This document shows, in pieces, positions 16,833 through 34,770 of a stretch of DNA of 44,135 nt; the first letter of the stretch is position 1; each line of letters starts with the position of its first letter. This stretch comes from a virus, in IMG/VR virus record IMGVR_UViG_3300034069_000450, positions 1 to 44,135 of that record; one strand, given 5' to 3'. A program made the translations under genes and the position numbers. The notes under the pieces are model-generated. The model was not told the origin of the DNA. It ran no database searches and worked only from the letters and a program-made list of their open reading frames with translations.

Positions 16833-17361
16833 GGTGGCGGCCAAGATGAAGCCGCAATACCCCGATTATCTGGACGATCCGGACGGCCTAGACCGCTTCC
16901 GCCAATCTGTGCGGGTCAACAGCGGTCATGACATGGCGTTGGTCAACTACAACTCCCTCGGACGTTTGATCGACACGATTGACCGGCTCACCCGCCAGCA
17001 AGCCGAAGCCCGCGCCACGTCGGGGGCGGGGGACAGAGAACGCCTCACTGACAAGGTGCGCGATCTTATCGCCGAAATGCAGATGGGTGATGCATCTGAA
17101 TACGAGACGACGGACGTGATCGTCGCCCTTCTCTCCGCCTCCCCCACCGAAGTGCCAGGATTGGAAGGGGTGGGGTCAGTGACGATCAGCCGGGAGCGAT
17201 ACGATCGTCTGCGCTTTGCGGCGGGAGAGATCAATGCCGATCCCGGTCTAGCAGCGGTCGCCGGTGAAAGCCGTTCTGCACTCATGACCGCGATGGCAAC
17301 GGAGCGTCGAGCGTTCGCCGCACCCACCCGCCTCGCGCTCAATGAGCAGGGGGAAGGGTGA
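16822..17361 (+). CDS. Hypothetical protein (179 aa)
   Basis: Starts at ATG 16822 (MSSEVAAKMK), the same first four codons as the gene at 16521. Confidence 0.5.
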   Translation: MSSEVAAKMKPQYPDYLDDPDGLDRFRQSVRVNSGHDMALVNYNSLGRLIDTIDRLTRQQAEARATSGAGDRERLTDKVRDLIAEMQMGDASEYETTDVIVALLSASPTEVPGLEGVGSVTISRERYDRLRFAAGEINADPGLAAVAGESRSALMTAMATERRAFAAPTRLALNEQGEG

Positions 17362-18176
17362 TGGCGTATGCTGATCGCCTCGCCCGCCGAGACCAGCGCG
17401 TTTCGCAGAGGACTCGCGTTCTGGCTTGGGTCGATGGTGTCAATAGCGCCGTCATGACCAAGCTGGCGCTTGATGAGGACTCCGACGTTATCCCGGTTCA
17501 CTGTGACCTAGGCGATAGCGTACACGAGGACAGTCACCGGTTCATCAACGATCTAGAGATATGGTACGGCAAGCCGATCATCCGCATCCGCAGCGAAGAA
17601 TACGCGACAATCGATGAGGTGTTCGAGAAGCGTCGTTATCTGTCTGGTATGAACGGAGCGCCATGCACGGGCGCCATGAAGATAGTGCCTCGCATGAACT
17701 TTCAATTGCCAAGCGATACTCACCTGTGGGGATATGCCGCCGATAAGCTAGACGCCAAGCGCTTTACTCGGATGCAGGCCGACTACCCGTTACTGCTCCA
17801 GCGCGCGCCGTTGGTCGAACTCGGCATGACCAAGCGCGACACGCATGCTTACCTCGCGGACCATGGCATCCGCCGGCCTCATGTCTACGATGTCGGCATG
17901 CCAAACGGCAACTGCATTGGCTGCGTCAAGTCGTCCAGCCCGAACTACTGGGCTCTAATCAGGCAAGAGTTTCCCAAAGTATTTGAGCGCCGCAATGCGC
18001 AAGCGCGTAGATTTGGTGCGCGCCTCGTCATCGTTGGTCGCGAGAAGGGCGAGGACGGCAAGGTCCGCAACATCCGCGCTTTTCCAGACGAAATACCGGC
18101 TGATCAATCAACCATCGTTCGCGGTGCCGACTTTGGTGGTTGTGGCTTCCATTGTCCCACGGAGCAATCCTTATGA
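17358..18176 (+). CDS. PAPS-reductase/PP-loop superfamily protein with degenerate P-loop
   Basis: Family-like layout: WVDGVNSAV where SGGxDS is expected, then NCIGC and a C-terminal GGCGFHC (compare the ECGLH-type motif). Confidence 0.5.
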   Translation: MMAYADRLARRDQRVSQRTRVLAWVDGVNSAVMTKLALDEDSDVIPVHCDLGDSVHEDSHRFINDLEIWYGKPIIRIRSEEYATIDEVFEKRRYLSGMNGAPCTGAMKIVPRMNFQLPSDTHLWGYAADKLDAKRFTRMQADYPLLLQRAPLVELGMTKRDTHAYLADHGIRRPHVYDVGMPNGNCIGCVKSSSPNYWALIRQEFPKVFERRNAQARRFGARLVIVGREKGEDGKVRNIRAFPDEIPADQSTIVRGADFGGCGFHCPTEQSL

Positions 18177-19633: not shown

Positions 19634-19812
19634 CGGCGCGCGCTCGCTTCAGCCAGGCGGACGTGACGCGAGCATTCCGGGCGGCGAAGACGGCCGGCTT
19701 CTCTCACGTGCGCGTCGGGATTGACGTGCAGGGCAATATCGTAGTCGATGCGAGTGATGTGACGGTCATCCCCGATCGCCGCAACCCGCTCGACAGGCTT
19801 TTGGCATCGTGA
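19630..19812 (+). CDS. Small protein upstream of integrase (60 aa)
   Basis: ORF track. Overlapping start and stop. It could be a recombination directionality factor, but no motif supports that. Confidence 0.45.
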   Translation: MTARARFSQADVTRAFRAAKTAGFSHVRVGIDVQGNIVVDASDVTVIPDRRNPLDRLLAS

Positions 19813-20876
19813 AGACGCGCTACAAGAACGTCACCGTCAATCCGGATCGGCACGGCAAGCTGCGGGCACGCTTCCGCAAGGTCGGCACGACGCCGGTCTA
19901 CATGAAGGCGTTGCCCGACCAGCCGGGCTTCGACGCGGAATACCAGACGCTCTTGTCCTCGCCCCGCCAGATCGATCGCGCCATTCCCGGCAGCATCGGC
20001 GATCTGGTGACGCGCTACTATCGCAGCGGCGATTTCGCGGCGAAGGGATCAGCCGACACGCGAGCCCGGCGTCGCTACCTGATCGAGAGCTTCCGTACCG
20101 ACTTCGCCAACGACATGGTCGTGGACTTCGGATTTGAGCATATCGAGGCCATCCTGATAGCTCGTACGAAGAAGCGACGGTTGGACAGCGGGCGGGAGGT
20201 AGGCGGAGAGGTCGCCGCCAGAAATCTGCGCAAGGAACTGCGTCGCCTATTCGCCTACGCCAAGAAGCTGAAGTGGATCGCCGGTAACCCCGTCGATGAC
20301 GCGGAGAAGATCGGCAAGGCCAAGCTGGCGGGCTACTATCCGTGGGCCGAGGCGGACATCGCGCAGTACCAAGCCAAGCACGCGCTCGGCACCCGTGCCC
20401 GGCTTGCGCTTGAGATCATCCTGTGGACCGGCCAGCGCCGTGGCGACACAAGGCTGTTCGGCCCCCAGCACATCGTTCGCGGCAAGATCAATTTCCAAGC
20501 GGCGAAGAACGGTGCCGACCTCTGGCTACCGATCGCGCCCGACCTCCGCCGTGCCATCGCCGCAATGCCGAGTGTCGGCCTGCGTAGCTTCCTCGTCACA
20601 CAGGCGGGCAACGTGTTCAGCAAGGACGGCTTCGGCAACAAATTCCGCGAGTGGTGCGACGAGGCTGGCTTACCGCAATGTGCTGCTCACGGCCTGCGTA
20701 AGGCCATTGCCCGACGTATGGCGCTAAGCTCGGCGACGCAGCGCGGCATCAAAGCGGTCGGCGGCTGGAAGGGCGACAGCGAGGTTACGCTTTATACCGA
20801 ATCAGCCGAGCAAGAGGCGCTGGCAGAGACGGCACTGGGCCTGGCGATCGACCGATTCTCAACCGAGAATGGCTAA
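19809..20876 (+). CDS. int: Tyrosine recombinase / phage integrase
   Basis: Catalytic signature: WTGQRRGD (Arg), HGLRKA (H-x-x-R), GGWKGDSEVTLYT (Tyr). Confidence 0.9.
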   Translation: MKTRYKNVTVNPDRHGKLRARFRKVGTTPVYMKALPDQPGFDAEYQTLLSSPRQIDRAIPGSIGDLVTRYYRSGDFAAKGSADTRARRRYLIESFRTDFANDMVVDFGFEHIEAILIARTKKRRLDSGREVGGEVAARNLRKELRRLFAYAKKLKWIAGNPVDDAEKIGKAKLAGYYPWAEADIAQYQAKHALGTRARLALEIILWTGQRRGDTRLFGPQHIVRGKINFQAAKNGADLWLPIAPDLRRAIAAMPSVGLRSFLVTQAGNVFSKDGFGNKFREWCDEAGLPQCAAHGLRKAIARRMALSSATQRGIKAVGGWKGDSEVTLYTESAEQEALAETALGLAIDRFSTENG

Positions 20877-24864: not shown

Positions 24865-25119
24865 TCATCGATCCGTTCCCTTTGTAAGAGCGTCCGCCTG
24901 CTTCTGCGCTAGCTCTCCGCCGTTCTTCGTGGCACCGAACGCCCACGATACGACACCATTGACGAAGGCAGTGCCGACGACTAGTGTGGTTATCGTCTTG
25001 AAGAATTCATCACCCCGCAGCCCTGGCACGAAGGCCATGAGCGTGATGAGATAGATCGCCAGCGCATAGACCGAAACGCCTACCCACCCACGGGCGTCGG
25101 GAAAGTGCCAGTCTCTCAC
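24865..25119 (-). CDS. Holin-like two-TM membrane protein (84 aa), paralog of 25691..25948
   Basis: Two hydrophobic helices with a charged C-terminus. It overlaps the endolysin stop (ATGA-type). Confidence 0.55.
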   Translation of the reverse strand: MRDWHFPDARGWVGVSVYALAIYLITLMAFVPGLRGDEFFKTITTLVVGTAFVNGVVSWAFGATKNGGELAQKQADALTKGTDR

Positions 25120-25694
25120 GCCTGCCCCCTATAGACCCGCGCCTCCACTTGCCGACGACGCGTGAGCCCCGCCAGCACCTTGCCGCCCGCCTTGTTCCAC
25201 TTCTCGAACTCGTCGGCGGCGCCGCTATAATCGCCAGCCTTGTGCTTGCGGAGAAGCGTCGAGCCCTCGAACGCCGACACGCCGACGTTGTACGCCATCG
25301 AGATCATCGCGGCCTTCTGTGCGTCCGTGGTGCGTGCGTCGCCGAGGGCCTTGGTCACACCGTCCGCGAACCGCTCCACGTCCTTCGCCAGTCGTGCGTC
25401 CGCTTCGTCTTGGGTCCATGTCACTCCCTTGCGAATACCGGGTCCTGTAGCGCCCCAGCCGATCGTCCAGGGATCTGCGCCGGTGCCGGGATCGGGGTAG
25501 GCGGTGAGACGGCAGCCTTCGAACTGCTTAATGAGCCCGAGCGCGATCGGCAGCCAAGCGTATTCACCAGCGAGGCGTTTCATGCCGGCTAGGTCCGCCA
25601 GCTCGTCCACCTTGGCGATGAGCGGCTTGGTGAAGCTGCGATCTGGCATCAACGGCCGGATCGCGTCGAATAGGGCGGTGCGTTGGTCGGTCAC
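25116..25694 (-). CDS. Endolysin, GH24 (T4/P22-type) lysozyme with ~45-aa N-terminal extension
   Basis: Catalytic E-D-T pattern: FEGCRLTAYPDPGTGADPWTIGWGAT. Confidence 0.85.
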   Translation of the reverse strand: MTDQRTALFDAIRPLMPDRSFTKPLIAKVDELADLAGMKRLAGEYAWLPIALGLIKQFEGCRLTAYPDPGTGADPWTIGWGATGPGIRKGVTWTQDEADARLAKDVERFADGVTKALGDARTTDAQKAAMISMAYNVGVSAFEGSTLLRKHKAGDYSGAADEFEKWNKAGGKVLAGLTRRRQVEARVYRGQA

Positions 25695-25948
25695 ATCGTC
25701 TCTCCCCGTAGGCGCCGGACTTCAGCCTCAAGGCGCTTGATTTCCTCGTTCTTCGTGGTGTCCTGCCGGTAGTGCCAAGCCAGTGCGATCCCGACCAAGC
25801 CGGTGATGACGATCGCCTGCGCGAGCGTGCGGAACAGTGTGTTGGCACCGGCCTGCGGCACGAAGGCGGTGATGCTGATGACGTAGAAGGTCAGCCCGAA
25901 CAGTGCGGCGGTGGGCCAGTCGTCAGCTAGGCGGGAGCGAACGGTCAT
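25691..25948 (-). CDS. Holin/antiholin-like two-TM membrane protein (85 aa)
   Basis: LFGLTFYVISITAFVP...IVITGLVGIALAW. It aligns with the 84-aa protein (shared AFVP, F[RK]T, W). Confidence 0.55.
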   Translation of the reverse strand: MTVRSRLADDWPTAALFGLTFYVISITAFVPQAGANTLFRTLAQAIVITGLVGIALAWHYRQDTTKNEEIKRLEAEVRRLRGETM

Positions 25949-26352
25949 GCTTCCGGCAACTCCGCTCCAAGAATCTCCGCCCGGTGTACGGCAGCTTTTT
26001 CTAGAGCCTCGGTCTTCATCTGAGACTCACGCATTGCCTTGACCCTCGTGGCGGCCTCCTTCGCCTTTTCAGGGTCCATCTCAATCATCATGATAAGCGC
26101 ATCTAGGCATTGAGTGACGTTGTTGAGCTTATGGCGGTCGACAGCGCGCTCGGCTTCGAGCTTCGCCATTCGCTTGCGCATCGCCTCCATTTCGGCCGCT
26201 CGTTCGGCAAGGAGGTTGGCTTCACGTTCGTTCGCCAATTTCTTCAACGCAGGGCGGCTTTTGACGATCGCTACCAGCACCCCGCCGATAAGCAGGTTCA
26301 TGGTGCTGAGCAGGATGGTGCGAACCGCTTGCGAGTCCAAAAAAGACCACAT
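25945..26352 (-). CDS. N-terminal TM plus coiled-coil protein (i-spanin-like or lysis regulator)
   Basis: TM helix LLSTMNLLIGGVLVAIV followed by a long charged helical region. Confidence 0.45.
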   Translation of the reverse strand: MWSFLDSQAVRTILLSTMNLLIGGVLVAIVKSRPALKKLANEREANLLAERAAEMEAMRKRMAKLEAERAVDRHKLNNVTQCLDALIMMIEMDPEKAKEAATRVKAMRESQMKTEALEKAAVHRAEILGAELPEA

Positions 26353-26354
26353 GG

Positions 26355-26636
26355 CTACACTCGCGGACCGCGCCCATACGCGCGGGCTAGAAGAATTATG
26401 TAGACGCCAGACGCTGCGCTAAGTCCGTAAAGCGCCTGCCACAGCACGATGCTATCCGGTGCCAGCAGCCAACGCAGGTTGAAGCCGACCATGACAAAAG
26501 CGGTGGAAAGGCACGCTAACCTCATAGGATCGCCGCGCCGCAAATCTTTGCCGAAAGCGGCCGACCAAGCGCCTGGGATCATATAGACAAGCATGATGCC
26601 CCAGACGACGACGTTAAGGATGCGCAGCTCTACCAT
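26355..26636 (-). CDS. Membrane protein (93 aa, ~3 TM)
   Basis: Starts at ATG 26636 (MVELRILNVVVWGIMLVYM). The track's N-terminal extension overlaps the upstream gene. Confidence 0.45.
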   Translation of the reverse strand: MVELRILNVVVWGIMLVYMIPGAWSAAFGKDLRRGDPMRLACLSTAFVMVGFNLRWLLAPDSIVLWQALYGLSAASGVYIILLARAYGRGPRV

Positions 26637-27103
26637 TCGTTGAGCCTGCGGCCGCGAGTAACTAACCGAAGTGCCGCTGTGTCTAGTCGTTCTGCCAGCC
26701 GTCTGATGTGCCGCCAATCAGCCGTGAGCGGAACAATGCCGACGCGGACCATCGACCAGCACCAATCCACTAGCCAAGCATCGTGCGAGTTGATGTAACC
26801 TCCCGCTTGCAAGGCGAGAACCGCTGCGGTTGGTCCGTAAAGTGCCGCAACGATATAATCAGCCTTTTCGCGGGCCACCCCCGCGACAGCGCCTATACCG
26901 ACGATCGCCATCGTCATGTCGATCAGCGTGAGCACGCCAACCTTTAAAGCGCCGAGCTGAAGATACCCAAAGTCAGCGCCGATCAGGTAGGCGAACTGCC
27001 CCGGCAACCAAACAAGCGCCACAGCCAGCGCCACCCGAGAGACCGGGATGAACGGCGCCACGCATAAGGCGATGGCAAGCAAGTAGAAGTCACCGGGGCC
27101 CAT
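26630..27103 (-). CDS. Polytopic membrane protein (157 aa)
   Basis: At least 4 hydrophobic segments. Confidence 0.5.
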   Translation of the reverse strand: MGPGDFYLLAIALCVAPFIPVSRVALAVALVWLPGQFAYLIGADFGYLQLGALKVGVLTLIDMTMAIVGIGAVAGVAREKADYIVAALYGPTAAVLALQAGGYINSHDAWLVDWCWSMVRVGIVPLTADWRHIRRLAERLDTAALRLVTRGRRLNEW

Positions 27104-27270: not shown

Positions 27271-29340
27271 TCATGCCCCAATCAGACCCGCCGCGCGCTG
27301 CTTGACGAGAAGGTCGTTGTGATCGGCGAGCAGGGCGTTGTGCGCGGTAACGAGGGCATTAAAGTCGGTCTGCGTCACAGCGTTGCTCAAGGCAGTAGGC
27401 GCGGCCCCTGCATTGCTCGCCGTCGCCGTGCTGTCCGGATCAGATGCGGCCGGCCCAAGCTGCTTATCCGCTCCGCTGATGCCGTAGTATGATGCCAGCC
27501 CGTCGTGGGTCGTGTTGCCGTACTTGACCACATCGTTGAACGGCAACTTGATGAAGCCTGACGACGCGACGCTGCCGGACGGTCGGTCGCCGTTTCTGCC
27601 GGTGTTGCCGGTGACCTGGATGATGCCGCCTGGGGTGCCGGTCAGCACCTCCATCTCCCACGTGCCGGTGAGGCCGACACGCTCCCATTGGCAGTCGTTG
27701 ACGCGGATGCTGCCGGTGAACTTGTCAATCCGAACGGCATGACCAGCCGCGCCCTTGATCGTGGTGCTGTCAATCGAGAAGTCCACCACGTTATCGACAC
27801 GGATGCCGAACGTTGCCGAACTGTCGACCGTGCCACCGCGAATTTTCAGGTTGCGAACGGCACCACCATTGTCGCCCCGCGCGCGAATTCCCTCATTGCG
27901 CGAGCCGACGATGTGTGGCGAAACGATCTCCACGTCTACCGCATCAGCGCCGCCCAGCGCGTAGATATGGAACGCGCCGTAGGGGTTGGTCGAACCCGCG
28001 TTGCCGCAGTTGATGGCGGTGCAGGAGATGAAGCGGGTAGCCTGGTTGCCGAACAGGCCTCCGCTCGACCCATCCGTGATGACGGCGAACCCGGCCAACG
28101 CAGCGTCCACCGCCGTGCAGTTGGCGAACATAATCTCGTTCGCACCGCCAGACACGAAGGCGCGAGCCTGACCGCCGCGCGTGTGGCAGTTGACGAAGCT
28201 GATCCGCGAAGGCGCGGCCAAGTCCTGCGTATAGCCGATGACCGTGAACAGGTCGTCGCCACCGCCCGACATAGTGGAATTGCTGACGCTGATGTCAGCG
28301 GCCTGATACGCCGTCGTGCCGACATGACCGCTGGTGATGTGGCAGCCGTCCGCGAAGCCGTCCTTGCCATGTAGATTATCGATCGTGCCGAGCGAGCAGC
28401 CGTAGAAGTACGCCTGGCTGCCCGACGAGCCGATCACCTGCACATTGCGGACGAGGAAATAATTGCAGAATAGGAATGCCAGCCCGTGATCGATGAACGC
28501 GCCTGGTCCACGTCCACCACCGCCGGTGTACTGGATCGTCAGGTCCTGCACCGAGCAGCCGTCAGCATTGAACTGAAGGGCCGCGTCATGGAGGCCGGTC
28601 GCTTCGATTACCGAAATGCCGATACCGCGACCGCGCAGTGACACAGCGTTGGTGCCGAACGACACGTTCTTGCTGTGGCGAAGGCGTCCGCGTGGTAGCC
28701 ACAGCTCCGACGTGCCGAACAAGCCGAGGTAGACCACCGCCTGCTCAAGGACCGTCTGATTGTCGAACGATGCCGACGTGGAACAGCCGAGCGCCGTGAG
28801 CGGCAGACCGGCGCTGTCATCGGCAACGAAGCGCGCCCCGCTCGCGTCCGTCGTCCACCAGAAGCCCTTGCCGGCCGCGTAGGTGCCCGCGAGGTCAAGC
28901 CCGCCGGTGTAGCGGTTGAACACCGCCTTACCGCGATCGGTAAAGCGGATGGTGTTGGTGCCGACGGGGATCGTGACACCGGCCAGCGCGGTAAACAGCC
29001 CTACGTCGGATACGTTGCCCCCGGGGTCGCCTTTGATGCCTTCCCCTGCGATACCCGGGATATACGGGTCGATCTGGTTCAACACCGTCCCGAACAGCCC
29101 GCGCAGAACGACCCGGTATGTCTTGCTGTTGTCGAGATAGATGGATGGCCAGACACCCGCAGCATTGGCGCTGAGCGGATTCGCCAAGGGCGTCGTCAAG
29201 GCGGCGTCAGCATAGACGGCCTGAAGCGTGTTGGTGCCCGACAGGTAGAAGGTCAGGGTAGCGCCTGGCACCACGATGCCATTCGCGTCCAACGCTGGAC
29301 GGAAAGGCAGGAAAAACAGACTGGCGGGCTGATCGGCCAT
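27271..29340 (-). CDS. Tail fibre/tailspike with right-handed beta-helix (pectate-lyase-like) body
   Basis: N-terminus FLPFRPALDANGIVVPGATLTFYLSGTNTLQAVYAD...IYLD is typical of phage fibre anchors. The central region has Gly/Asn/Val-rich periodic repeats. 689 aa. Confidence 0.7.
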   Translation of the reverse strand: MADQPASLFFLPFRPALDANGIVVPGATLTFYLSGTNTLQAVYADAALTTPLANPLSANAAGVWPSIYLDNSKTYRVVLRGLFGTVLNQIDPYIPGIAGEGIKGDPGGNVSDVGLFTALAGVTIPVGTNTIRFTDRGKAVFNRYTGGLDLAGTYAAGKGFWWTTDASGARFVADDSAGLPLTALGCSTSASFDNQTVLEQAVVYLGLFGTSELWLPRGRLRHSKNVSFGTNAVSLRGRGIGISVIEATGLHDAALQFNADGCSVQDLTIQYTGGGGRGPGAFIDHGLAFLFCNYFLVRNVQVIGSSGSQAYFYGCSLGTIDNLHGKDGFADGCHITSGHVGTTAYQAADISVSNSTMSGGGDDLFTVIGYTQDLAAPSRISFVNCHTRGGQARAFVSGGANEIMFANCTAVDAALAGFAVITDGSSGGLFGNQATRFISCTAINCGNAGSTNPYGAFHIYALGGADAVDVEIVSPHIVGSRNEGIRARGDNGGAVRNLKIRGGTVDSSATFGIRVDNVVDFSIDSTTIKGAAGHAVRIDKFTGSIRVNDCQWERVGLTGTWEMEVLTGTPGGIIQVTGNTGRNGDRPSGSVASSGFIKLPFNDVVKYGNTTHDGLASYYGISGADKQLGPAASDPDSTATASNAGAAPTALSNAVTQTDFNALVTAHNALLADHNDLLVKQRAAGLIGA

Positions 29341-29400
29341 CGGGCGCTTCCGGATATGAGCGGGAAGGGCACCATCCGGGCCGATTGCGAGTGGGTATGC

Positions 29401-29450
29401 CGCGTGGGGGCGGGGTGGAATACTAGGCGTTGCGTGGGGGCAGGGGGTGG
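29401..29450. repeat. G-rich direct repeats GCGTGGGGGC(G/A)GGGGTGG flanking motif copy 2
   Basis: 29402-29418 and 29432-29450 read directly, in the divergent gap between the tail-fibre gene and the moron. Confidence 0.6.
29419..29429 (-). promoter_or_regulatory. CGCCTAGTATT motif copy 2
   Basis: Exact 11-mer, 78 nt upstream of tail-fibre ATG 29340. Confidence 0.5.
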
Positions 29451-29480
29451 GTTAGCCTGCGCCAAAAGCGAGGGTTGATA

Positions 29481-29882
29481 ATGCGCTACGGCTTTGCTGG
29501 CGTTCTCCTATTAGCCGCTACGGGTAGTGCGGTCGGACAAACTACAACTTGCACAAATTGGTACAACACGACGACCTGCAATACACCGCCGCAAGCTCCT
29601 GGCGTGAACTGGGGCATCCTTCAGTCTCAACCTCAGCAATCTGTGATGGGCGCCTACCAGCAGGGTCGCGCCATTGCTCAGGAGCGCGCCAACCAGCAAG
29701 CGGCGATGGCGCAACAGCAAGCCAACGACATTGAGGCGCAGCGGCAAGGCGACCGCAATCAACGCGTGGGATCGCTAGTTGCGGCCGGACGATGCCAAGA
29801 CGCACTAACGACCGCTTTGAACGAGGGTGACTTTTCCTTGGCCGGTCAAGTCAAGAATGTTTGCGCCGAAGGGCGGAAGTAG
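29481..29882 (+). CDS. Secreted (signal-peptide) Cys-containing protein; opposite-strand moron with ejection-protein N-terminal mimicry
   Basis: Signal peptide MRYGFAGVLLLAATGSAVG/Q and 4 Cys. NWGILQ and AYQQGR are identical to the N-terminus of the 429-aa ejection protein. SD GCGAGGG lies upstream. Confidence 0.65.
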   Translation: MRYGFAGVLLLAATGSAVGQTTTCTNWYNTTTCNTPPQAPGVNWGILQSQPQQSVMGAYQQGRAIAQERANQQAAMAQQQANDIEAQRQGDRNQRVGSLVAAGRCQDALTTALNEGDFSLAGQVKNVCAEGRK

Positions 29883-29885
29883 ATC

Positions 29886-30017
29886 ATGACCCCAAGCATG
29901 TATACCCTGCCGTTCGCGACCGCGATATATTGGGCTGTCAAAGAGGCGTGGGGCTTGTACAAGGCGCGCTCAGCGTCCGTAGCTGAGAGCCAATCCGGAG
30001 CCGATGAGACCTCCTAG
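29886..30017 (+). CDS. Possible small ORF (43 aa) following the moron
   Basis: ATG lies 4 nt after the moron stop. It overlaps the 3' end of the convergent gene, which weakens the call. Confidence 0.2.
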   Translation: MTPSMYTLPFATAIYWAVKEAWGLYKARSASVAESQSGADETS

Positions 30018-31781
30018 CGCGTCTCGCTGCCGCACGGCCTCACCAGCACGCAGCAACACATCGGGACGGTCAATCAACGCAGCCTGTACCGCGCGCCGTC
30101 CGATCGGCGTGAAGGGCGCAGCGAGGGCCAACCCCGCCAAGACGTTCGTCGTTCCATCCTGACCGGATGCGTAGCCACCACCAGCGCCTAGGACGCCGCC
30201 GCCGGCCGCATAGAGGGCTAGACGGCCCGCGGTGCCGCTATCTGGCACGGACGATGGCAGAACGGTCTTTGCTTGGTCGGACAGGTCCTGAAGCCGAGCC
30301 TTGCCTGCGGCGAACGCACGCTTACGCGTCGACCGATCCGCCTCGCGCACCCCTTGGGCAAGGTTCTCAGGTGTAAACACGCCGTCTGTCTTCGACTTAG
30401 CCGCGGCCCGCTCGATCGCAGTCAGGTTTGCGTAAGCGGAATCCGCTGCTCGAAACATGGATGCGTTCTCGGGCGCCTGACGGCTCGCCAGTCCCATGAA
30501 CTCGTCGCGTACCGTCTCAAGCGTGTCAGCGATGTCGTGGTTGCGTGGCTCCGGGCTACGCCGGTACGCGTAGATCTTGTCGTTGAGGCCTCGCTTGATG
30601 GCTTGCAGCTGCGAGCCGTTAATGGGGTCGCTGCCGAACGGCCCGAGCGCGCGCTTCATAACGCTCGTCACCTCGTCGGCTTGATCGGTCGTCAGGGTGC
30701 CGATCTGAGCGCTGATATTCTGCAAGCCGGTGGCGAAATCACCGTCAGGCGTGAGGGAGATGCCGGACAGCCCTTTGTCGTAGGCCTCGTCAAGTTTGGA
30801 CTGAGCCCAGTCGATAAGCGATCGCCCAGGCGGTGTGTTGGGAGGCACCTCCTCTGCAATAGGCTCCAGAGCCTTGTTCACCGCAGCACGGTTTAAGTCC
30901 TCTACGCCTGCGCGCCGAGCAGACTGGATGGCGTCACCAATGATGGGGAGACCTGCGGCACGGTCCTCAACCGATTTAATCGCACCGCCGATCATGCCGT
31001 TTTGGCCGAAGATTTGGCCAGGCGTCATCGAAACGCCAGCACGGCTGAGGCTGCGGACAGCAGGCGCTACCACGGGCGACAAGACATTGCCGACGCCGCG
31101 CACGACGCCGCGGCCGATTGCTCCACCCAGGGCGTTCGTCACGCCGCCCTCAAGCGCGCCTTTCACCCGGTCGTTGTTGCTATTGCCAGCACCGTACGCC
31201 GCGCCGACGAGAGCATCAGCGGTGAGCGCACCTTTCAGCGCGTTCGGGACACCAGTGGCAAGCTGTGCGCCTCGGGCCGTCGCCGCTAGTCCAGTGCCCA
31301 GCGCGCCGCCAAGCACAAGACCGCCAACCTGTCCTGCGGTTGTTGAAAACGGATGGTCGCCGAACGCTGCCTGCTTGGCCCCATCAGCCTGTTGAAGATT
31401 GAGGTCATACTGCTCGCCGAAGGTGCGGCCCTCAGGGGCCGACCAGTAACTATCCCGCCCTGGCAGCACGGTCGTAATGCCCGCCGACAGCTCGTCTAAT
31501 AGCCCACCAGTCACGAAATCGCCCGCGCCGACCAATCCTGCTTGAAAATCGGATCCTAGCGGTTCGCGGGGTGTCTCCGCTGGCGCAGAGGAAGCCTTAG
31601 GCGCAGTCATTACCGGATCGTGTACCGTCGTGTCCGCCGGAGCAGGGGCACCCTTCAAATCGAGATCACCCTGCGCCACTCGCTCGTTGATGAAACGCTC
31701 AAGCTCGGCTGCCTTGTCGTCGCTCGGCGCTTCAACCTCGTACATACCGCCGTTCGCGGCCTTGATCTGATACTTCGGCAT
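29970..31781 (-). CDS. Internal virion / DNA-ejection protein (603 aa)
   Basis: Large Gly/Ala-rich protein with hydrophobic Gly-zipper-like stretches (GGLVLGGALGTGLAA; GGGVLGAGGGY). It sits with the other ejection genes. Confidence 0.55.
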   Translation of the reverse strand: MPKYQIKAANGGMYEVEAPSDDKAAELERFINERVAQGDLDLKGAPAPADTTVHDPVMTAPKASSAPAETPREPLGSDFQAGLVGAGDFVTGGLLDELSAGITTVLPGRDSYWSAPEGRTFGEQYDLNLQQADGAKQAAFGDHPFSTTAGQVGGLVLGGALGTGLAATARGAQLATGVPNALKGALTADALVGAAYGAGNSNNDRVKGALEGGVTNALGGAIGRGVVRGVGNVLSPVVAPAVRSLSRAGVSMTPGQIFGQNGMIGGAIKSVEDRAAGLPIIGDAIQSARRAGVEDLNRAAVNKALEPIAEEVPPNTPPGRSLIDWAQSKLDEAYDKGLSGISLTPDGDFATGLQNISAQIGTLTTDQADEVTSVMKRALGPFGSDPINGSQLQAIKRGLNDKIYAYRRSPEPRNHDIADTLETVRDEFMGLASRQAPENASMFRAADSAYANLTAIERAAAKSKTDGVFTPENLAQGVREADRSTRKRAFAAGKARLQDLSDQAKTVLPSSVPDSGTAGRLALYAAGGGVLGAGGGYASGQDGTTNVLAGLALAAPFTPIGRRAVQAALIDRPDVLLRAGEAVRQRDALGGLIGSGLALSYGR

Positions 31782-33070
31782 TACGGCAGCCTTCGGATGG
31801 TGGAGGAAACTCGGCTGCCGCCACCGCTCATTTCCTCGTACCCCTGTCGGGTCGTACGAATGAGGTCACGCAGACCCGCAATGGCCTCGCGCCGGCCATC
31901 CTCGCTCTGCGCCCTGCTCGGCAGCCCCGCCTGCGCCAGGCGACTCTCGTAATCGCTCATAGCGCCTTCGCCTGGCGTGCGGGTCAGCTTCCGGATTAGC
32001 GGCGAGAGGCCCGCGAGTGCGGCATCTGCGGCATTGGCGCTATCGCTGAGGCTGCCCCCAAAATGACCAATCCAAGCACCCTTCACATCGGTCTTGTTCA
32101 GTGCCGCTTCGGCGCGGTTCAGCTGTCCTTCTATCGCCTTGAGGTCAGTCAGCTTACCGGTGACATTCTGCTTCTGTCGGCCGGTAAGCTGGAAGCGTTC
32201 CTGCGTCATATCCTGCCCTCGCATTGTGACAGCCTGACCGGCTCGCGCGGTGGCCGCACCGATGTCCTGCCCACGCCGAGCAGTCGACGCGCTGATGTCC
32301 TGCCCACGACGCGCGGTGGATGCCGACACATCTTGACCGCGCACGGTGACCGCTTGACCGGCCGCCGCCCGATCATCTGCCAGCACTTTGTCGGCGCCGA
32401 CGCCGATCGCGACCATGCCTTTCAGGTTTTCGTCATGCGGATCAAACCCGGCGAGTTCGTCTGTCGTCCACCCTGCCTCGCGTAGGAGAGGCGCATGCTC
32501 GTCGATAAAGCCCGCTCTATCTGCCAACGGCAGCTTGCTCGCGGCGAGCGACACCGCAGCAGCCACCGCAGTTTTCTGACCGAACGCCTCGCGCCCGTTC
32601 TTGTCCAACTCGCCCATGTGCTTGGTGAGATTGGCCGCCATCTCAGGATCAAGCGCCGCGACATCTGCGATGGAGATCGCCGGCGCAGCGGGGGCTGATC
32701 GGCTACCGCTGACCATCACGTCGCCGGTTACCGGGTCGGTGGGCGATCCAACGTCCGGTCCGAGTGCGGTGACTGCGCCAGTTTGACCGGGCGCATGCTG
32801 CCGAAGATAACCTGCGTACGCCTGCCGGCCGAGCGCCGCGCGACGTGTCGCCTCGTTGTCCGCGTTGACCTTGGACAGCACGCCGAACGTCTGCGGATCG
32901 ACTGCGGCAAGAGGACGCAGCGCATCGGCGGTCGGATTCGCCGCATAAGTCGCCAGCGCATCGTCGCGCACTCGCTGTTGTTTAAGCTGACGCCCCTGCT
33001 GATAGGCTTCCAAGACCCCGCGCGACGGGTCACCGGCTTGCTGAAGGATGCCCCAATTAATCTGCGTCAT
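31781..33070 (-). CDS. Internal virion / ejection protein (429 aa) with RGQD tandem repeats
   Basis: Position, composition, and the in-frame 11-aa repeats RGQD[VI]SASTAR. Confidence 0.55.
   Translation of the reverse strand: MTQINWGILQQAGDPSRGVLEAYQQGRQLKQQRVRDDALATYAANPTADALRPLAAVDPQTFGVLSKVNADNEATRRAALGRQAYAGYLRQHAPGQTGAVTALGPDVGSPTDPVTGDVMVSGSRSAPAAPAISIADVAALDPEMAANLTKHMGELDKNGREAFGQKTAVAAAVSLAASKLPLADRAGFIDEHAPLLREAGWTTDELAGFDPHDENLKGMVAIGVGADKVLADDRAAAGQAVTVRGQDVSASTARRGQDISASTARRGQDIGAATARAGQAVTMRGQDMTQERFQLTGRQKQNVTGKLTDLKAIEGQLNRAEAALNKTDVKGAWIGHFGGSLSDSANAADAALAGLSPLIRKLTRTPGEGAMSDYESRLAQAGLPSRAQSEDGRREAIAGLRDLIRTTRQGYEEMSGGGSRVSSTIRRLP
32206..32350 (-). repeat. In-frame tandem repeat, 33-nt period (about 3 full and 2 partial units)
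   Basis: gatgtcctgcccacg recurs at 32261 and 32294, with degenerate units at 32228 and 32327. Protein: VRGQDVSASTARRGQDISASTARRGQDIGAATARAGQAVTMRGQDM. Confidence 0.75.
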
Positions 33071-33192
33071 GCTTCACGCTCCAGCTCAGCAATCCGCGCT
33101 TTGATTTCACGCACGTTCTCAGCAAGCCCGGTTCGGCCTTCGCGCGCCGCTAGCTTGGCACGCAGGGCAGCTAGTTCCTCGTCGCGGGTCAT
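33067..33192 (-). CDS. Small coiled-coil protein (41 aa)
   Basis: MTRDEELAALRAKLAARREGRTGLAENVREIKARIAELEREA. ATGA overlaps on both sides. Confidence 0.45.
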   Translation of the reverse strand: MTRDEELAALRAKLAAREGRTGLAENVREIKARIAELEREA

Positions 33193-33920
33193 CGCCCGAA
33201 CGGGTTCTGGCTAAGGGCGAACGGGCCGTTGAACACACCCGCTTGCGGCAAACTGTACCCGCCCACCGGCGCTGGCAATGCGTTCGGGGTCTTGTAGCTC
33301 GATTGGCCGAAATAGGTGGCGAGCGCGTTGCCGACGCCTTGAATGGCTTGGCTCTGGCCTTGCGCGCCGTACAGTGCCGCATTGGCCGCTGCCGACGAGG
33401 CGTTGTTGTTTGCCGCTGCCGACTGGTTGCCATAAGCGACGCCCGCACCGGTGGCGGCTCCCAAGGCGCTCGCTCCCGCCGCTTGCTGCCCCTGAAGCGC
33501 ATTAACGTACTGACCCATGGTCTGGCTCGCAAGGCCAGCACCGTACTTGGCCAACGCCTTCTGCGCTGCGCCGCTTTCAAGGGCGCCACGAGCGGCATAG
33601 CCGGTGTTGACGGCGGATAGTCCCTGGTTGAGCGTGTCCTGATAGCCGCTGGCGTTGCGGAAGGTGGCAAGCGCATCCTGCGCCGCTCCCGCGTCACCGC
33701 CGAGCCCGAGTAAGGCGTTGATCTGCGCTCCGGCCGCGTTGCCGCGATCCAATGTAGGCTGCGCCATGCCCATGTTGGTGTTGTAGATTGACAGCGCTTG
33801 TGCACGATCCGCCGCTGCCGACTGCGCGGCGATCTTGGCGGCTTTCTTCGCACCTTTGCCGCTGGTGATCCCCGACAAAAGGCTGGTAGCGCCCCCGATC
33901 CCGGCTGCGATTATAGGCAT
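33189..33920 (-). CDS. Gly/Ala/Gln-rich internal virion protein (243 aa)
   Basis: Starts at MPIIAAGIGGATSLL (ATG 33920). The track's 5' extension overlaps the upstream gene. Confidence 0.5.
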   Translation of the reverse strand: MPIIAAGIGGATSLLSGITSGKGAKKAAKIAAQSAAADRAQALSIYNTNMGMAQPTLDRGNAAGAQINALLGLGGDAGAAQDALATFRNASGYQDTLNQGLSAVNTGYAARGALESGAAQKALAKYGAGLASQTMGQYVNALQGQQAAGASALGAATGAGVAYGNQSAAANNNASSAAANAALYGAQGQSQAIQGVGNALATYFGQSSYKTPNALPAPVGGYSLPQAGVFNGPFALSQNPFGR

Positions 33921-34348
33921 GCGGCCCTCCACTCGAAATGCTCGACGGCGCCGAAATGCTCGGATTGCGCCACGCCGCGGGACAGCATGCCGATCTGCCG
34001 GTTGAACCAACGTGCCCGCACGTTGACCACCGGCGTCTGCGACCAGATGACAGCTCCTAATTCGGCCGCTGCCCATGCGAACATGGCGCGCCCCATCTCG
34101 ATTGCGGCACGTCCGCGGCAACCGAGGCGGAACATCGTGTGCTTTTCCCAGATGCCCAGAAACGCGGGTCCGGTGTGCTGGAACAGCATCATCGCGTCGC
34201 CGTCGTGGACAATGCGCACATCACCGCGCGCAACGATCGCCGATAGGTCTACCTCCCCCTCCTCGACCGGGGCACCGATGTGGGGCCGAATGGCCGGATC
34301 GTTGGCGAATGCGTTGACCAGATTGGCGTCGTGCGTCAGTCGCAGCAT
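33911..34348 (-). CDS. Acetyltransferase-fold-like small protein, paralog B
   Basis: About 35-40% identical by eye to 34336..34770 (LVN..AN.PA, HTMF, CRGR.A.E.G.A, W.QTP, RWFN..IG). Confidence 0.4.
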   Translation of the reverse strand: MLRLTHDANLVNAFANDPAIRPHIGAPVEEGEVDLSAIVARGDVRIVHDGDAMMLFQHTGPAFLGIWEKHTMFRLGCRGRAAIEMGRAMFAWAAAELGAVIWSQTPVVNVRARWFNRQIGMLSRGVAQSEHFGAVEHFEWRAACL

Positions 34349-34770
34349 CCGGGCTTCCTCATGACAAAGCGCTCGACTTCGCCGTGTACGGGGTGGAGGC
34401 CGATCCCGGCGGGCTCAAATCCGATGCGGTGGTTAAACCAGCGGACGTGGCGGAGAATACTAGGCGTCTGTCCCCAGAGCATGGTGGCGCCGTGGTCGAA
34501 CATCCATCCGCACAGGGCCTTGCCAGCCTCTACAGCCGACCGGCCACGACATGTGGGCAGGAACATCGTGTGGCCTTCCCAAACACCAGGCGCGCTCCAT
34601 TCGAAAATCGCTACGGCATCACCGCCATTAGAGAGAATGCGGTACTCGTCGGACTCTATACAGGGCGTGAAGTCGAGTGCGTCCCGTTTCCCTAGATCGA
34701 AGTACGGCAGCACGGCCGGGTGATTGGCGATGCGATTGACCAGCGTCGCCCCAGTCTCGCGCCGGATCAT
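34336..34770 (-). CDS. Acetyltransferase-fold-like small protein, paralog A
   Basis: Tandem paralog of the gene above. From memory it resembles podovirus proteins annotated 'internal virion protein A'. Confidence 0.4.
   Translation of the reverse strand: MIRRETGATLVNRIANHPAVLPYFDLGKRDALDFTPCIESDEYRILSNGGDAVAIFEWSAPGVWEGHTMFLPTCRGRSAVEAGKALCGWMFDHGATMLWGQTPSILRHVRWFNHRIGFEPAGIGLHPVHGEVERFVMRKPGCCD
34456..34466 (-). promoter_or_regulatory. CGCCTAGTATT motif copy 3 (inside paralog A, 107 nt upstream of the paralog B ATG)
   Basis: Exact 11-mer. Confidence 0.4.

What the first reader, a model, noticed from the sequence alone, without database searches (positions are those of the whole stretch)
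29481..29882. Opposite-strand secreted 'moron' that copies the N-terminal motif of an ejection protein: candidate superinfection-exclusion decoy
This gene is the only clear plus-strand gene in the ~30-kb late arm. It is inserted between the ejection-protein genes and the tail-fibre gene, with its own SD and a divergent promoter gap. It has a clear signal peptide (MRYGFAGVLLLAATGSAVG/Q) and four Cys residues, consistent with periplasmic disulfides.

Its mature part contains GVNWGILQ-9aa-AYQQGR. The 429-aa internal virion/ejection protein (31781-33070) begins MTQINWGILQ-11aa-AYQQGR. The match is also visible in the DNA. The 15-mer TGGGGCATCCTTCAG at 29610-29624 recurs as an inverted copy at 33041-33055, and the AYQQGR codons match at 15 of 18 positions.

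So the very N-terminus of a protein injected into the cell envelope has been duplicated, fused to a secretion signal and placed under separate control. A prophage-expressed periplasmic copy could compete with, or mis-trigger, the ejectosome of incoming related phages. I do not know of a described exclusion mechanism of this type. A possible 43-aa ORF follows at 29886-30017.
Basis: partly seen in the sequence, partly recalled or inferred. Interest (0 to 1): 0.8.

Follow-up and report, generated by a model that had tools for sequence, protein, structure and literature searches.

The report
Secreted mimic of an ejection protein
A temperate Sphingomonas phage carries, among its DNA-ejection genes, a small secreted protein whose middle copies the start of one ejection protein, which most likely lets the prophage jam the DNA-entry channel of related incoming phages, a way of excluding them that has not been described.

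Summary
The ORF at 29481-29882 is a real gene for a 133-aa secreted protein with four cysteines. Residues 42-74 match residues 4-38 of the 429-aa gp20-like ejection protein (BLASTP E=4e-8; z=13 against shuffles).

The gene is not a private, recent duplication. Identical residues share codons no more often than codon usage predicts (9 seen, 8.0 expected).

The protein belongs to an uncharacterised family of at least 200 sequence clusters in Sphingomonadales and Caulobacterales, mostly on their phages and mobile elements. The family as a whole shares a roughly 31-residue module with gp20-like N-termini (hhalign 96.8%).

In nine phage or prophage loci the family gene lies on the opposite strand inside the ejection-gene cluster. 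In others it directly follows the repressor gene. In three phage lineages with different gp20 N-terminal sequences, the central segment of the family protein matches the cognate type.

In P22, the first 47 residues of gp20 insert into the gp7 outer-membrane channel. A periplasmic decoy that blocks ejectosome assembly is therefore the best explanation. It is untested (confidence about 0.45). I class it as a new variant of superinfection exclusion.

The parts
29341..29480 (.). Divergent intergenic region between the tailspike start and the secreted-protein gene. Presumed promoter and RBS of the accessory operon.
   Evidence: Conserved in relatives L002 and L003 up to window position about 29456, after which the cargo differs. 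GAGGG lies 8-12 nt before the ATG. The simple sigma-70 consensus scan found nothing.
29481..29882 (+). Gene for the 133-aa secreted protein, a member of an uncharacterised family of small periplasmic proteins with two disulfides.
   Evidence: ORF. 211 representative proteins at E<=1e-3, aligned over residues about 8-130. Family alignment. AF2 model, pLDDT 86.5. No Pfam, NCBIfam, PHROG or PADLOC match.
29481..29537 (+). Signal peptide (aa 1-19, MRYGFAGVLLLAATGSAVG), with cleavage before Q20.
   Evidence: A-x-[AG]/Q is conserved across the family and Q20 is nearly invariant. No lipobox. The hydrophobic region is too short for a TM anchor.
29547..29582 (+). Beta-hairpin closed by C24 and C33 (C-x8-C).
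   Evidence: AF2 predicts strands 23-27 and 30-34. C24 and C33 are nearly invariant.
29601..29702 (+). Mimic module (aa 41-74: GVNWGILQ...AYQQGRAIAQERANQQA), similar to the N-terminus of the gp20-like ejection protein.
   Evidence: BLASTP E=4e-8. Shuffle z=13. hhalign of the family against gp20-like N-termini gives 96.8%, E=2.7e-10. Both proteins show the same predicted pattern of a short helix on WGIL followed by a long helix.
29766..29873 (+). C-terminal helical hairpin of the family scaffold (VGxLVAxGxC..A...AL..GDFxLA......C), with C105 and C128.
   Evidence: C105, L120 and C128 are invariant. AF2 predicts helices 105-114 and 118-131 with pLDDT >95. A DNA pattern for this motif hit only Sphingomonadales and Caulobacterales genomes (42 loci) and 16 viral contigs.
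29886..30017 (+). Co-oriented 43-aa ORF, 3 nt after the stop codon. It overlaps the 3' end of the gp16-like gene in antisense.
   Evidence: Present alone in the same slot of relatives L002/L068. The first 28 codons show 10 identical, 11 synonymous and 7 non-synonymous against L002.
29970..31781 (-). gp16-like ejection protein (603 aa).
   Evidence: Position after the gp20-like gene. phrog_5880. Homologues lie next to family genes in L054, L059 and L067.
31781..33070 (-). gp20-like ejection protein (429 aa).
   Evidence: Homologues include PF16928 'phage DNA ejection protein' sequences. Synteny gp7-like, gp20-like, gp16-like.
32957..33064 (-). N-terminal module of the gp20-like protein (aa 3-38) that the secreted protein resembles.
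   Evidence: AF2 predicts helices 7-10 and 15-44. In P22, gp20 residues 1-47 insert into the gp7* channel lumen.
33189..33920 (-). gp7-like ejection protein (243 aa), the proposed target of the decoy.
   Evidence: phrog_598 'DNA ejection', E=3e-21. Gene call in the identical contig L001. The target role is inferred from the P22 gp7*-gp20 structure.
27271..29340 (-). Tailspike (689 aa, right-handed beta-helix), which bounds the slot on the other side.
   Evidence: PF13229 Beta_helix, E=1.6e-7.
19809..20876 (+). Integrase. It shows the phage is temperate, so prophage expression of the accessory gene is possible.
   Evidence: phrog_1 integrase, E=2e-19.

Best explanation
**Shown.** The window is a temperate P22-like podovirus of Sphingomonas. 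Between its gp16-like ejection gene and its tailspike gene, on the opposite strand, lies a small accessory operon: a 133-aa gene and a 43-aa gene. The 133-aa product has these parts:
- a cleavable signal peptide;
- a disulfide-closed beta-hairpin;
- a roughly 34-residue segment that resembles the N-terminus of the phage's own gp20-like ejection protein;
- a long helix;
- a disulfide-stapled helical hairpin.

It belongs to an uncharacterised family carried mainly by phages and integrative elements of Sphingomonadales and Caulobacterales.

**Inferred mechanism.** The protein is made from the prophage (and perhaps late in infection) and exported to the periplasm. When a related phage adsorbs, it first ejects its gp7-like protein to build the outer-membrane channel. 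That channel must then be filled and stabilised by the N-terminal segment of the gp20-like protein. The resident periplasmic protein presents a look-alike of that segment on a stable scaffold and occupies the gp7-like channel, or another partner of the gp20 N-terminus. The trans-envelope conduit cannot be completed and the incoming DNA does not enter. This is superinfection exclusion by molecular mimicry. Specificity would lie in the variable central segment. The hairpin and C-terminal domain would form a constant scaffold.
For: **The gene is real and its product is exported.**
- It has full-length homologues, and the signal-peptide cleavage context and all four Cys are conserved.
- The AF2 model is confident, pLDDT 86.5.
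- It has no TM segment and no lipobox.

**It behaves as an accessory gene.**
- It is absent from L002/L068 (gp20 80% identical), which keep the upstream DNA and the 43-aa gene.
- In L003 (about 98% identical flanks) a 61-aa two-TM protein takes its place.
- Every relative examined has some small envelope-targeted gene on the opposite strand in this slot.
- This is the positional equivalent of P22 sieA. SieA blocks DNA injection, and its escape mutants map to gp16 and gp20 (PMC10883804).

**The mimicry is real.**
- BLASTP E=4e-8 and shuffle z=13.
- Profile-profile comparison of the family with gp20-like N-termini gives 96.8%, E=2.7e-10.
- Among all ORFs of about 160 loci, the only hits of the family HMM outside the family itself are on stretches of ejection-protein ORFs (gp20-like or gp20-analog), at or near the N-terminus in most of them.
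- Both proteins show the same predicted pattern of a short helix followed by a long helix.

**The mimic segment matches the cognate gp20 type.**
- In L056 the family protein has ELPQVPDYYGQF and its own gp20-analog has ELQAPPDYYSQF (z=6.3, rank 1 of 539 N-termini).
- In L066 the family protein has PTDYSSRMAQID and the gp20-analogs of its phage group have PIDYSSLQSQLD (z=6.5, 4.3 and 2.6).
- The window type matches only the window type.
- The resident pair ranks in the top 3 of about 110 in one direction and 2nd of about 150 in the other.

**The family gene is linked to the ejection module.** It lies on the opposite strand inside that module in the window, L054, L055, L059, L067, L048, L061, L066 and L056, although the gp16 proteins are only about 30% identical.

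**Other members are placed for prophage expression.**
- One overlaps the end of a Peptidase_S24 CI-like repressor gene (L083).
- Others directly follow HTH_3 genes (L006, L008).
- The window encodes an integrase.

**Possible parallels.** In three low-GC phage contigs a protein with a signal peptide carries the cognate gp20 N-terminal module and is encoded right after the gp20-analog gene (z 8.9-10.9).
Against: - There is no expression, localisation, binding or plating data of any kind.
- The simple scan found no recognisable promoter.
- Four of seven cognate pairs (L059, L061, L048, L067) show no significant similarity between the family protein and their own gp20 N-terminus. Mimicry is therefore not universal in the family.
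- Many family members lack the NWG/DY-type segment altogether, for example the Novosphingobium copies next to relaxase and integrase genes.
- One member sits inside a chromosomal pnt (transhydrogenase) operon with no mobile-element genes nearby (L007).
- The gp20 homology to P22 covers only the C-terminal part. The role of the N-terminus is therefore transferred by analogy.
- None of 15 IMG/VR loci holding gp20-like relatives, nor L002 or L003, carries the family gene. It is therefore dispensable and rare in this lineage.
- A prophage that excludes its own type is the normal expectation for exclusion. A role in self-recognition cannot be separated from it here.
Confidence: 0.45

Rival explanations
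1. Exclusion or lysogenic conversion through a host target. The shared module is a docking motif for a host envelope component, such as a periplasmic or outer-membrane protein or peptidoglycan, that the gp20 N-terminus also needs. The secreted protein saturates or alters that host site rather than binding a phage protein.
For: - The module is shared at family level, not only between cognate pairs.
- Some members with the module are not next to ejection genes (L004, L006, L008, L083). One is chromosomal (L007).
- Leavitt et al. raise the same alternative for SieA (occlusion of a host inner-membrane component).
Against: - The in situ P22 structure shows the gp20 N-terminus buried inside the gp7* lumen, not on a host protein.
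- Matching between the mimic and the cognate gp20 N-terminal type in three lineages is more easily explained by a phage-encoded partner that co-varies than by a conserved host site.
Confidence: 0.15
2. An envelope fitness factor unrelated to phage entry. The family is a periplasmic protein of Sphingomonadales and Caulobacterales with a housekeeping or stress role that mobile elements carry as cargo. The resemblance to gp20 N-termini is an old shared helical motif with no functional link.
For: - There is a chromosomal copy embedded in a pnt operon.
- 42 genomic hits cover several genera, including copies without the module.
- Four of seven cognate pairs are not similar.
- There is no match to any known defence family.
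Against: - The gene repeatedly lies on the opposite strand inside the ejection-gene cluster of phages whose gp16 is only about 30% identical.
- It is placed directly after repressor genes.
- The mimic segment matches the cognate gp20 type.
- It alternates with other small envelope-targeted cargo genes in the same slot.
- The genomic copies whose neighbours were examined were mostly next to integrase, relaxase or ArdC genes, or in a prophage.
Confidence: 0.25
3. A lysis or morphogenesis component. The protein is an i-spanin-like or periplasmic lysis accessory factor, or an assembly factor for ejection proteins.
For: - It has a long predicted helix and is exported.
- In L092 and L123 the analogous protein is followed by a small lipoprotein gene, an arrangement reminiscent of Rz/Rz1.
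Against: - The N-terminus looks cleavable, not a TM anchor.
- The downstream 43-aa ORF has no Cys or lipobox.
- The gene lies outside the lysis cassette at 24865-27103, which has its own membrane proteins, including a 135-aa protein with a TM segment and a predicted coiled coil.
- Close relatives lack the gene.
- Other members sit next to repressors or next to integrase/relaxase genes.
- An exported protein cannot chaperone virion proteins that assemble in the cytoplasm.
- PHROGs gives no spanin match.
Confidence: 0.05
4. Chance resemblance, or a non-functional ORF.
For: The public gene call was a shorter 78-aa ORF. The region is rich in Q and A.
Against: - More than 200 full-length homologues have conserved Cys and signal peptide.
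- No shuffle out of 5000 reached the observed score.
- Profile-profile E=2.7e-10.
- The AF2 model is confident.
Confidence: 0.02

Closest known systems
P22 SieA (superinfection exclusion A)
   Same: - It is encoded by a prophage accessory gene just downstream of the ejection-protein genes 7-20-16 of a P22-like phage.
- It blocks DNA injection by P22-like phages.
- Genetics link it to the gp20/gp16 conduit (PMC10883804).
- The window gene occupies the equivalent slot.
   Different: - SieA is a polytopic inner-membrane protein with a cytoplasmic FxRYPxEAxxFNK motif. Its escape mutations lie in the C-terminal regions of gp16 and gp20.
- The window protein is soluble and periplasmic. It has no TM segment and no such motif.
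- It resembles the N-terminus of gp20, which points to the outer-membrane (gp7) end of the conduit.
Ltp of Streptococcus phage TP-J34, and the T5 Llp / Cor-type exclusion lipoproteins
   Same: They are small prophage-encoded proteins exported across the cytoplasmic membrane that stop incoming phages at or before DNA entry (PMC3952083 and PMC9586334, listed). That Ltp targets the tape-measure protein of the incoming phage rests on my own knowledge, not on a paper read here.
   Different: Those are lipoproteins, and they act by binding the tape-measure protein or the receptor. None is reported to copy a segment of the ejection machinery. The window protein has no lipobox.
P22 gp20 / PF16928 ejection protein N-terminal segment
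   Same: The N-terminal roughly 35-47 residues of the gp20-type protein are the part copied in the secreted protein. In P22 this segment lines the lumen of the gp7* dodecamer.
   Different: - The secreted protein has only this segment in common with gp20.
- The rest of it is an unrelated scaffold with two disulfides.
- The window's gp20-like protein matches PF16928-bearing proteins only in its C-terminal 40%.
Phage 'morons' (accessory genes inserted between conserved late genes)
   Same: - It is present or absent among near-identical relatives.
- It has its own orientation and upstream region.
- Its product is targeted to the envelope.
- Alternative cargo genes occupy the same slot.
   Different: This is a category, not a mechanism. 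Neither a promoter nor a terminator was demonstrated.

Membership tests
Uncharacterised small secreted two-disulfide family (defined here; no Pfam, NCBIfam, PHROG or PADLOC model) | N-terminal signal peptide ending A-x-[AG] before a conserved Gln | tested here: met
   Alignment A1: Q20 is nearly invariant and preceded by a hydrophobic region.
Uncharacterised small secreted two-disulfide family (defined here; no Pfam, NCBIfam, PHROG or PADLOC model) | C-x8-C hairpin plus the C-terminal motif G.C..A...AL..GD[FL].LA......C | tested here: met
   C24 and C33 are nearly invariant; C105, L120 and C128 are invariant. HMMER aligns residues about 8-130 to proteins of 120-150 aa. AF2 predicts a hairpin and a helical hairpin.
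Uncharacterised small secreted two-disulfide family (defined here; no Pfam, NCBIfam, PHROG or PADLOC model) | Restricted to Sphingomonadales and Caulobacterales and their mobile elements | tested here: met
   All 42 genome hits are from Novosphingobium, Sphingomonas, Caulobacter, Phenylobacterium or related organisms. There are 16 viral-contig hits. The window's gp20-like relatives are in Sphingomonas genomes.
P22 SieA-type exclusion protein | Polytopic inner-membrane protein | tested here: not met
   No hydrophobic segment in the mature protein (maximum KD19 0.61). AF2 predicts a soluble helical protein.
P22 SieA-type exclusion protein | Conserved FxRYPxEAxxFNK motif (PMC10883804) | tested here: not met
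   Reading the 133-aa sequence directly finds no such motif. There is no PHROG hit.
P22 SieA-type exclusion protein | Gene located just after the ejection-protein genes of a P22-like prophage | tested here: met
   The gene lies between the gp16-like gene and the tailspike gene. An integrase is present.
P22 SieA-type exclusion protein | Blocks DNA injection by related phages when expressed alone | not testable with these tools
   This needs plating and DNA-entry assays.
Exclusion lipoproteins (Ltp, Llp, Cor) | Lipobox [LVI][ASTVI][GAS]C at the end of the signal peptide | tested here: not met
   A regex search finds no lipobox. The first Cys is at position 24, after QTTT.
Two-component spanin (i-spanin) | N-terminal TM anchor, a partner o-spanin lipoprotein gene adjacent or embedded, and a location in the lysis cassette | tested here: not met
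   The hydrophobic region is short, as in a signal peptide. The downstream 43-aa ORF has no Cys. The lysis cassette is at 24865-27103. PHROGs gives no spanin match.
gp20-type ejection protein (PF16928), for the 429-aa protein | Sequence match to PF16928 and the gene order gp7-like, gp20-like, gp16-like | tested here: inconclusive
   Pfam gives no hit above threshold on the window protein itself. Its homologue list includes PF16928 'phage DNA ejection protein' sequences that match about 40% of the query. The gene order fits.

The most novel reading that the evidence does not exclude
Secreted 'ejectosome decoys' are a general and recurrent strategy. Mobile elements encode a stable periplasmic scaffold that displays a copy of the channel-docking N-terminal segment of the gp20-type ejection protein. 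The copy caps or poisons the gp7-type outer-membrane channel of incoming podoviruses.
- Specificity would be set by the displayed segment, which tracks the local gp20 type.
- The same trick would have arisen on unrelated scaffolds in other phage lineages (L088, L092, L123).
- Copies of the scaffold on conjugative-type elements may display other peptides, for example for entry exclusion.
Probability: 0.3. Interest if true: 0.85.

Novelty: new variant of a known kind. Interest (0 to 1): 0.68.

Why it matters
Exclusion at the DNA-entry step is common, but its mechanism is understood in only a few cases.

If the decoy model is right, it would be the first case in which a prophage blocks rivals with a soluble periplasmic copy of the ejection-protein segment that docks into the outer-membrane channel. 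It would also show that the outer-membrane end of the podovirus conduit can be attacked.

The model makes specificity predictable from sequence: compare the mimic segment with the incoming phage's gp20 N-terminus. That makes it directly testable and potentially engineerable.

It would also assign a function to an unannotated protein family of at least 200 clusters in Sphingomonadales and Caulobacterales. And it would identify the gap between the gp16-like and tailspike genes of these phages as a hot spot for envelope-acting accessory genes.

Tried and rejected
**Searches that found nothing useful.**
- blastn and tblastn against the GenBank phage collection gave no match.
- The word-indexed protein search found only three near-identical proteins. 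Its profile version was saturated.
- The contig of the 89%-identical relative P0003 could not be retrieved. The exact look-up failed. Two metagenome scans and one viral scan found nothing. No dN/dS could therefore be computed for the 133-aa gene.
A hand-made degenerate DNA pattern was used instead.
- The PDB sequence search and Foldseek against PDB and BFVD gave no meaningful match.
- Pfam, NCBIfam and PADLOC gave no family.
- Cluster look-ups gave no names.
- A scan around 80 gp7-like genes, meant to gather more cognate pairs, found no further family members. It did turn up the L088, L092 and L123 parallels.

**Ideas rejected.**
- Recent intragenomic duplication or gene conversion, rejected by the codon test.
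- A lipoprotein or an inner-membrane SieA homologue.
- A spanin.
- A low-complexity artefact.
Full report
**1. What is in the sequence**

The window is a 44,135-bp metagenome contig (P0002 and P0004 list a longest contig of that length). It is a temperate P22-like podovirus.
- The minus strand carries a head-closure (Hc3/gp10-like) gene, a gp7-like 'DNA ejection' gene, a gp20-like gene, a gp16-like gene, a beta-helix tailspike and a lysis cassette.
- Elsewhere there are an integrase, RecET-like genes and a primase.
- Homologues of the gp20-like protein occur in Sphingomonas genomes. More distantly, they include PF16928 'phage DNA ejection protein' sequences.

The ORF at 29481-29882 (+) encodes 133 aa and has a GAGGG Shine-Dalgarno sequence. 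A 43-aa ORF follows 3 nt after its stop codon.

**2. Check of the observation**

- BLASTP aligns residues 42-74 with residues 4-38 of the 429-aa protein (49% identity, E=4e-8).
- The Smith-Waterman score of 87 was not reached in 5000 shuffles (mean 24.6, maximum 56).
- The 15-mer is present on both strands at the stated coordinates.

The DNA identity adds nothing, however. Seventeen aligned residues are identical and nine use the same codon. The window's codon usage predicts 8.0. There is thus no sign of a recent duplication or gene conversion.

**3. The protein belongs to a family**

An exhaustive HMMER search found 211 representative proteins at E<=1e-3. Most are 100-170 aa and align over residues about 8-130.

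The alignment shows a constant architecture:
- a signal peptide ending A-x-A/G before a conserved Gln;
- a C-x8-C hairpin;
- a variable segment that often reads [IV][ND]W[GSN][IL]...Y..G[RQ];
- a long charged helix;
- a C-terminal motif G.C..A...AL..GD[FL].LA......C.

AlphaFold2 gives a confident model (pLDDT 86.5). It has a beta-hairpin at 23-34, a short helix at 44-47, a long helix at 55-101 and a helical hairpin at 105-131. The model has no fold match in PDB or BFVD. No Pfam, NCBIfam, PHROG or PADLOC model matches. The mature protein has no TM segment and no lipobox. It is therefore predicted to be a soluble periplasmic protein with two disulfides.

**4. The shared module is a family-level feature**

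The N-terminal motif M..INWG[IL]L...GY..GR is conserved in all Sphingomonas-type gp20-like proteins. It also occurs in relatives that carry peptidoglycan-hydrolase domains.

A profile-profile comparison of the small-protein family with gp20-like N-termini gives 96.8% probability and E=2.7e-10 over 31 columns. Among all ORFs of the loci collected, the only hits of the family HMM outside the family itself are on stretches of ejection-protein ORFs (gp20-like or gp20-analog), at or near the N-terminus in most of them.

AF2 of the gp20-like protein predicts a short helix on WGIL (7-10) and then a long helix (15-44). This is the same local pattern as in the secreted protein.

**5. Genomic context**

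*The slot in close relatives*
- L001 is 100% identical to the window over 5.4 kb.
- L002/L068 (gp20 80% identical) lacks the 133-aa gene. It keeps the upstream DNA and the 43-aa ORF.
- L003 is 97.6-98.5% identical on both sides. Everything from mid-gp20 through gp16 to the cargo is replaced there, and the left breakpoint is at window position 29456. A 61-aa two-TM protein occupies the slot.
- Other relatives carry 48-aa or 61-aa one-TM genes, or 71-72-aa two-TM genes, in the same place and orientation.
- The slot is thus a hot spot for small envelope-targeted accessory genes. It is the positional equivalent of sieA in P22.

*Where the family gene lies in other phages*

It recurs on the opposite strand inside the ejection module of phages whose gp16 is only about 30% identical:
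- between gp16 and the tailspike in L054, L055, L059 and L067;
- between the gp14-position gene and gp7 in L048 (a Sphingomonas albertensis prophage), L061 and L066;
- just upstream of that gene in L056.

*Other locations*
- Some members directly follow repressor-type genes. P0193 overlaps the end of a Peptidase_S24 gene. P0144 and P0132 follow HTH_3 genes.
- Some lie next to integrase, relaxase or ArdC genes (L009, L026, L029, L037).
- One lies inside a chromosomal pnt operon (L007).
- A degenerate DNA pattern for the C-terminal motif hit 42 genome loci, all Sphingomonadales, Caulobacterales or related alphaproteobacteria, and 16 viral contigs.

**6. Does the mimic track its cognate ejection protein?**

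I compared the central segment of seven family proteins with seven gp20-analog N-termini.
- The window pair gives z=13.3.
- The L056 pair gives z=6.3 with a quite different sequence (ELPQVPDYYGQF against ELQAPPDYYSQF). It ranks first of 539 N-termini.
- The L066 protein matches the gp20 type of its phage group (PTDYSSRMAQID against PIDYSSLQSQLD; z=6.5, 4.3 and 2.6).
- Scores between these three sequence types are at most 3.0, and most are below 2. L059 and L067 each reach 4.7 against the L048 N-terminus, so the off-diagonal background is not uniformly low.
- Four pairs (L059, L061, L048, L067) are not significant.
- The resident window pair is among the best of all pairs: top 3 of about 110 gp20 N-termini, and 2nd of about 150 family members.

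This is more than a shared ancestral motif would predict. The sample is small, however, and phylogeny is not controlled.

**7. Mechanistic precedent**
- Leavitt et al. (mBio 2024, PMC10883804) showed that SieA blocks DNA injection by P22-like phages. SieA is an inner-membrane protein whose gene I place, from my own knowledge of the P22 map, between gene 16 and the immI region. Its escape mutations lie in the C-terminal regions of gp16 and gp20.
- Yu et al. [quoted passage not shown] By analogy, a periplasmic protein that displays a look-alike of this segment could occupy the gp7-like channel of an incoming phage and prevent conduit completion. This step is inferred, not shown.

**8. Parallels noticed**

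I screened 80 gp7-like-bearing viral loci for ORFs that resemble their own gp20-analog N-terminus. Three turned up: L088, L092 and L123 (z 8.9-10.9).
- In each, a protein with an N-terminal signal peptide is encoded immediately after the gp20-analog gene, on the same strand.
- In L123 the similarity extends over 83 residues (E=3e-7).
- In L092 and L123 a 77-aa lipoprotein gene follows. In L092 the gp16-analog gene comes next.

These may be independent decoys on other scaffolds, or an i-/o-spanin-like pair. PHROGs gives no spanin match. The question stays open.

**9. Verdict**

- Accessory-gene status, export and specific mimicry of the ejection-protein N-terminus stand.
- The 'recent duplication plus signal-peptide fusion' origin does not.
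- The exclusion function is the best-supported hypothesis but is untested (confidence about 0.45).
- Rivals are competition for a host docking site (0.15), an unrelated envelope function (0.25), a lysis or assembly role (0.05) and chance (0.02).

Relative to known systems, this would be a new variant of superinfection exclusion at the DNA-entry step. The protein is soluble and periplasmic, acts by mimicry, and would target the outer-membrane end of the conduit.

Noticed in passing
L088 6834-7604; L092 6919-7272 and 7277-7510; L123 6035-6418 and 6423-6656: In three low-GC P22-like viral contigs, a protein with a signal peptide is encoded right after the gp20-analog gene, on the same strand. It begins with a copy of that gp20-analog's N-terminal module (z 8.9-10.9; L123 BLASTP E=3e-7 over 83 aa). 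In L092 and L123 a 77-aa lipoprotein gene follows. These could be independent 'decoys' or an unusual spanin-like pair.
   Followed up: partly
window 29886-30017 (+): The 43-aa ORF downstream of the secreted-protein gene overlaps the gp16-like 3' end in antisense. It is conserved alone in the same slot of L002/L068. Its first 28 codons show 11 synonymous and 7 non-synonymous differences, so it is probably a real small gene. Its function is unknown.
   Followed up: partly
L003 versus window 28925-34365: L003 is 97.6-98.5% identical to the window on both flanks. The block from mid-gp20 through gp16 (858 aa instead of 603) to the slot cargo is replaced. The gp20 C-terminal part, gp16 and the accessory gene therefore travel together as one exchangeable module.
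   Followed up: partly
L068-L075 and L003, between the gp16-like and tailspike genes: Every relative carries a different small opposite-strand gene here: 43 aa, 48 aa with one TM, 61 aa with one TM, or 61-72 aa with two TM. The slot is a hypervariable site for envelope-targeted accessory genes.
   Followed up: partly
window 2202-2933 and 2930-3622 (-): The large terminase subunit is split into two overlapping ORFs that match the C-terminal and N-terminal parts of terminase families. This could be a frameshift, a sequencing error or a genuine split.
   Followed up: no
window 15735-16481 and 17358-18176 (+): There are genes like queuine tRNA-ribosyltransferase and PAPS reductase in the early region. 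They suggest 7-deazaguanine-type DNA modification.
   Followed up: no
window 33911-34348 and 34336-34770 (-): Two tandem paralogous genes of about 145 aa lie between the needle-position gene and the gp7-like gene. Related genes flank the family gene in L048, L061 and L066.
   Followed up: no
window 32210-32340 (gp20-like aa 244-290): The gp20-like protein contains tandem RGQD[IV]SA.T.R repeats. The same repeat is expanded many-fold in other ejection-type proteins (for example P0027 and P0031). AF2 confidence is very low in this stretch.
   Followed up: no
L026 and L029 (Novosphingobium sp. BL-8A chromosome): Two copies of a family member without the NWG module lie next to a MobA-like relaxase, ArdC and an integrase. 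The scaffold is therefore also carried next to conjugation and integration genes, where an entry-exclusion role is conceivable.
   Followed up: no
L007 10001-10384 (GCA_031417655.1): A family member that has the module (GIDWGL...GYEDGQ) is embedded between pntAA and pntAB of a chromosomal transhydrogenase operon. No mobile-element genes were seen in the 20 kb around it. This does not fit a purely phage-defence role.
   Followed up: no
window 26630-27103 (-): A 157-aa protein with several hydrophobic segments is encoded directly after the tailspike gene and before the lysis genes. It has no family match and may be another envelope-acting accessory gene or a holin-type protein.
   Followed up: no
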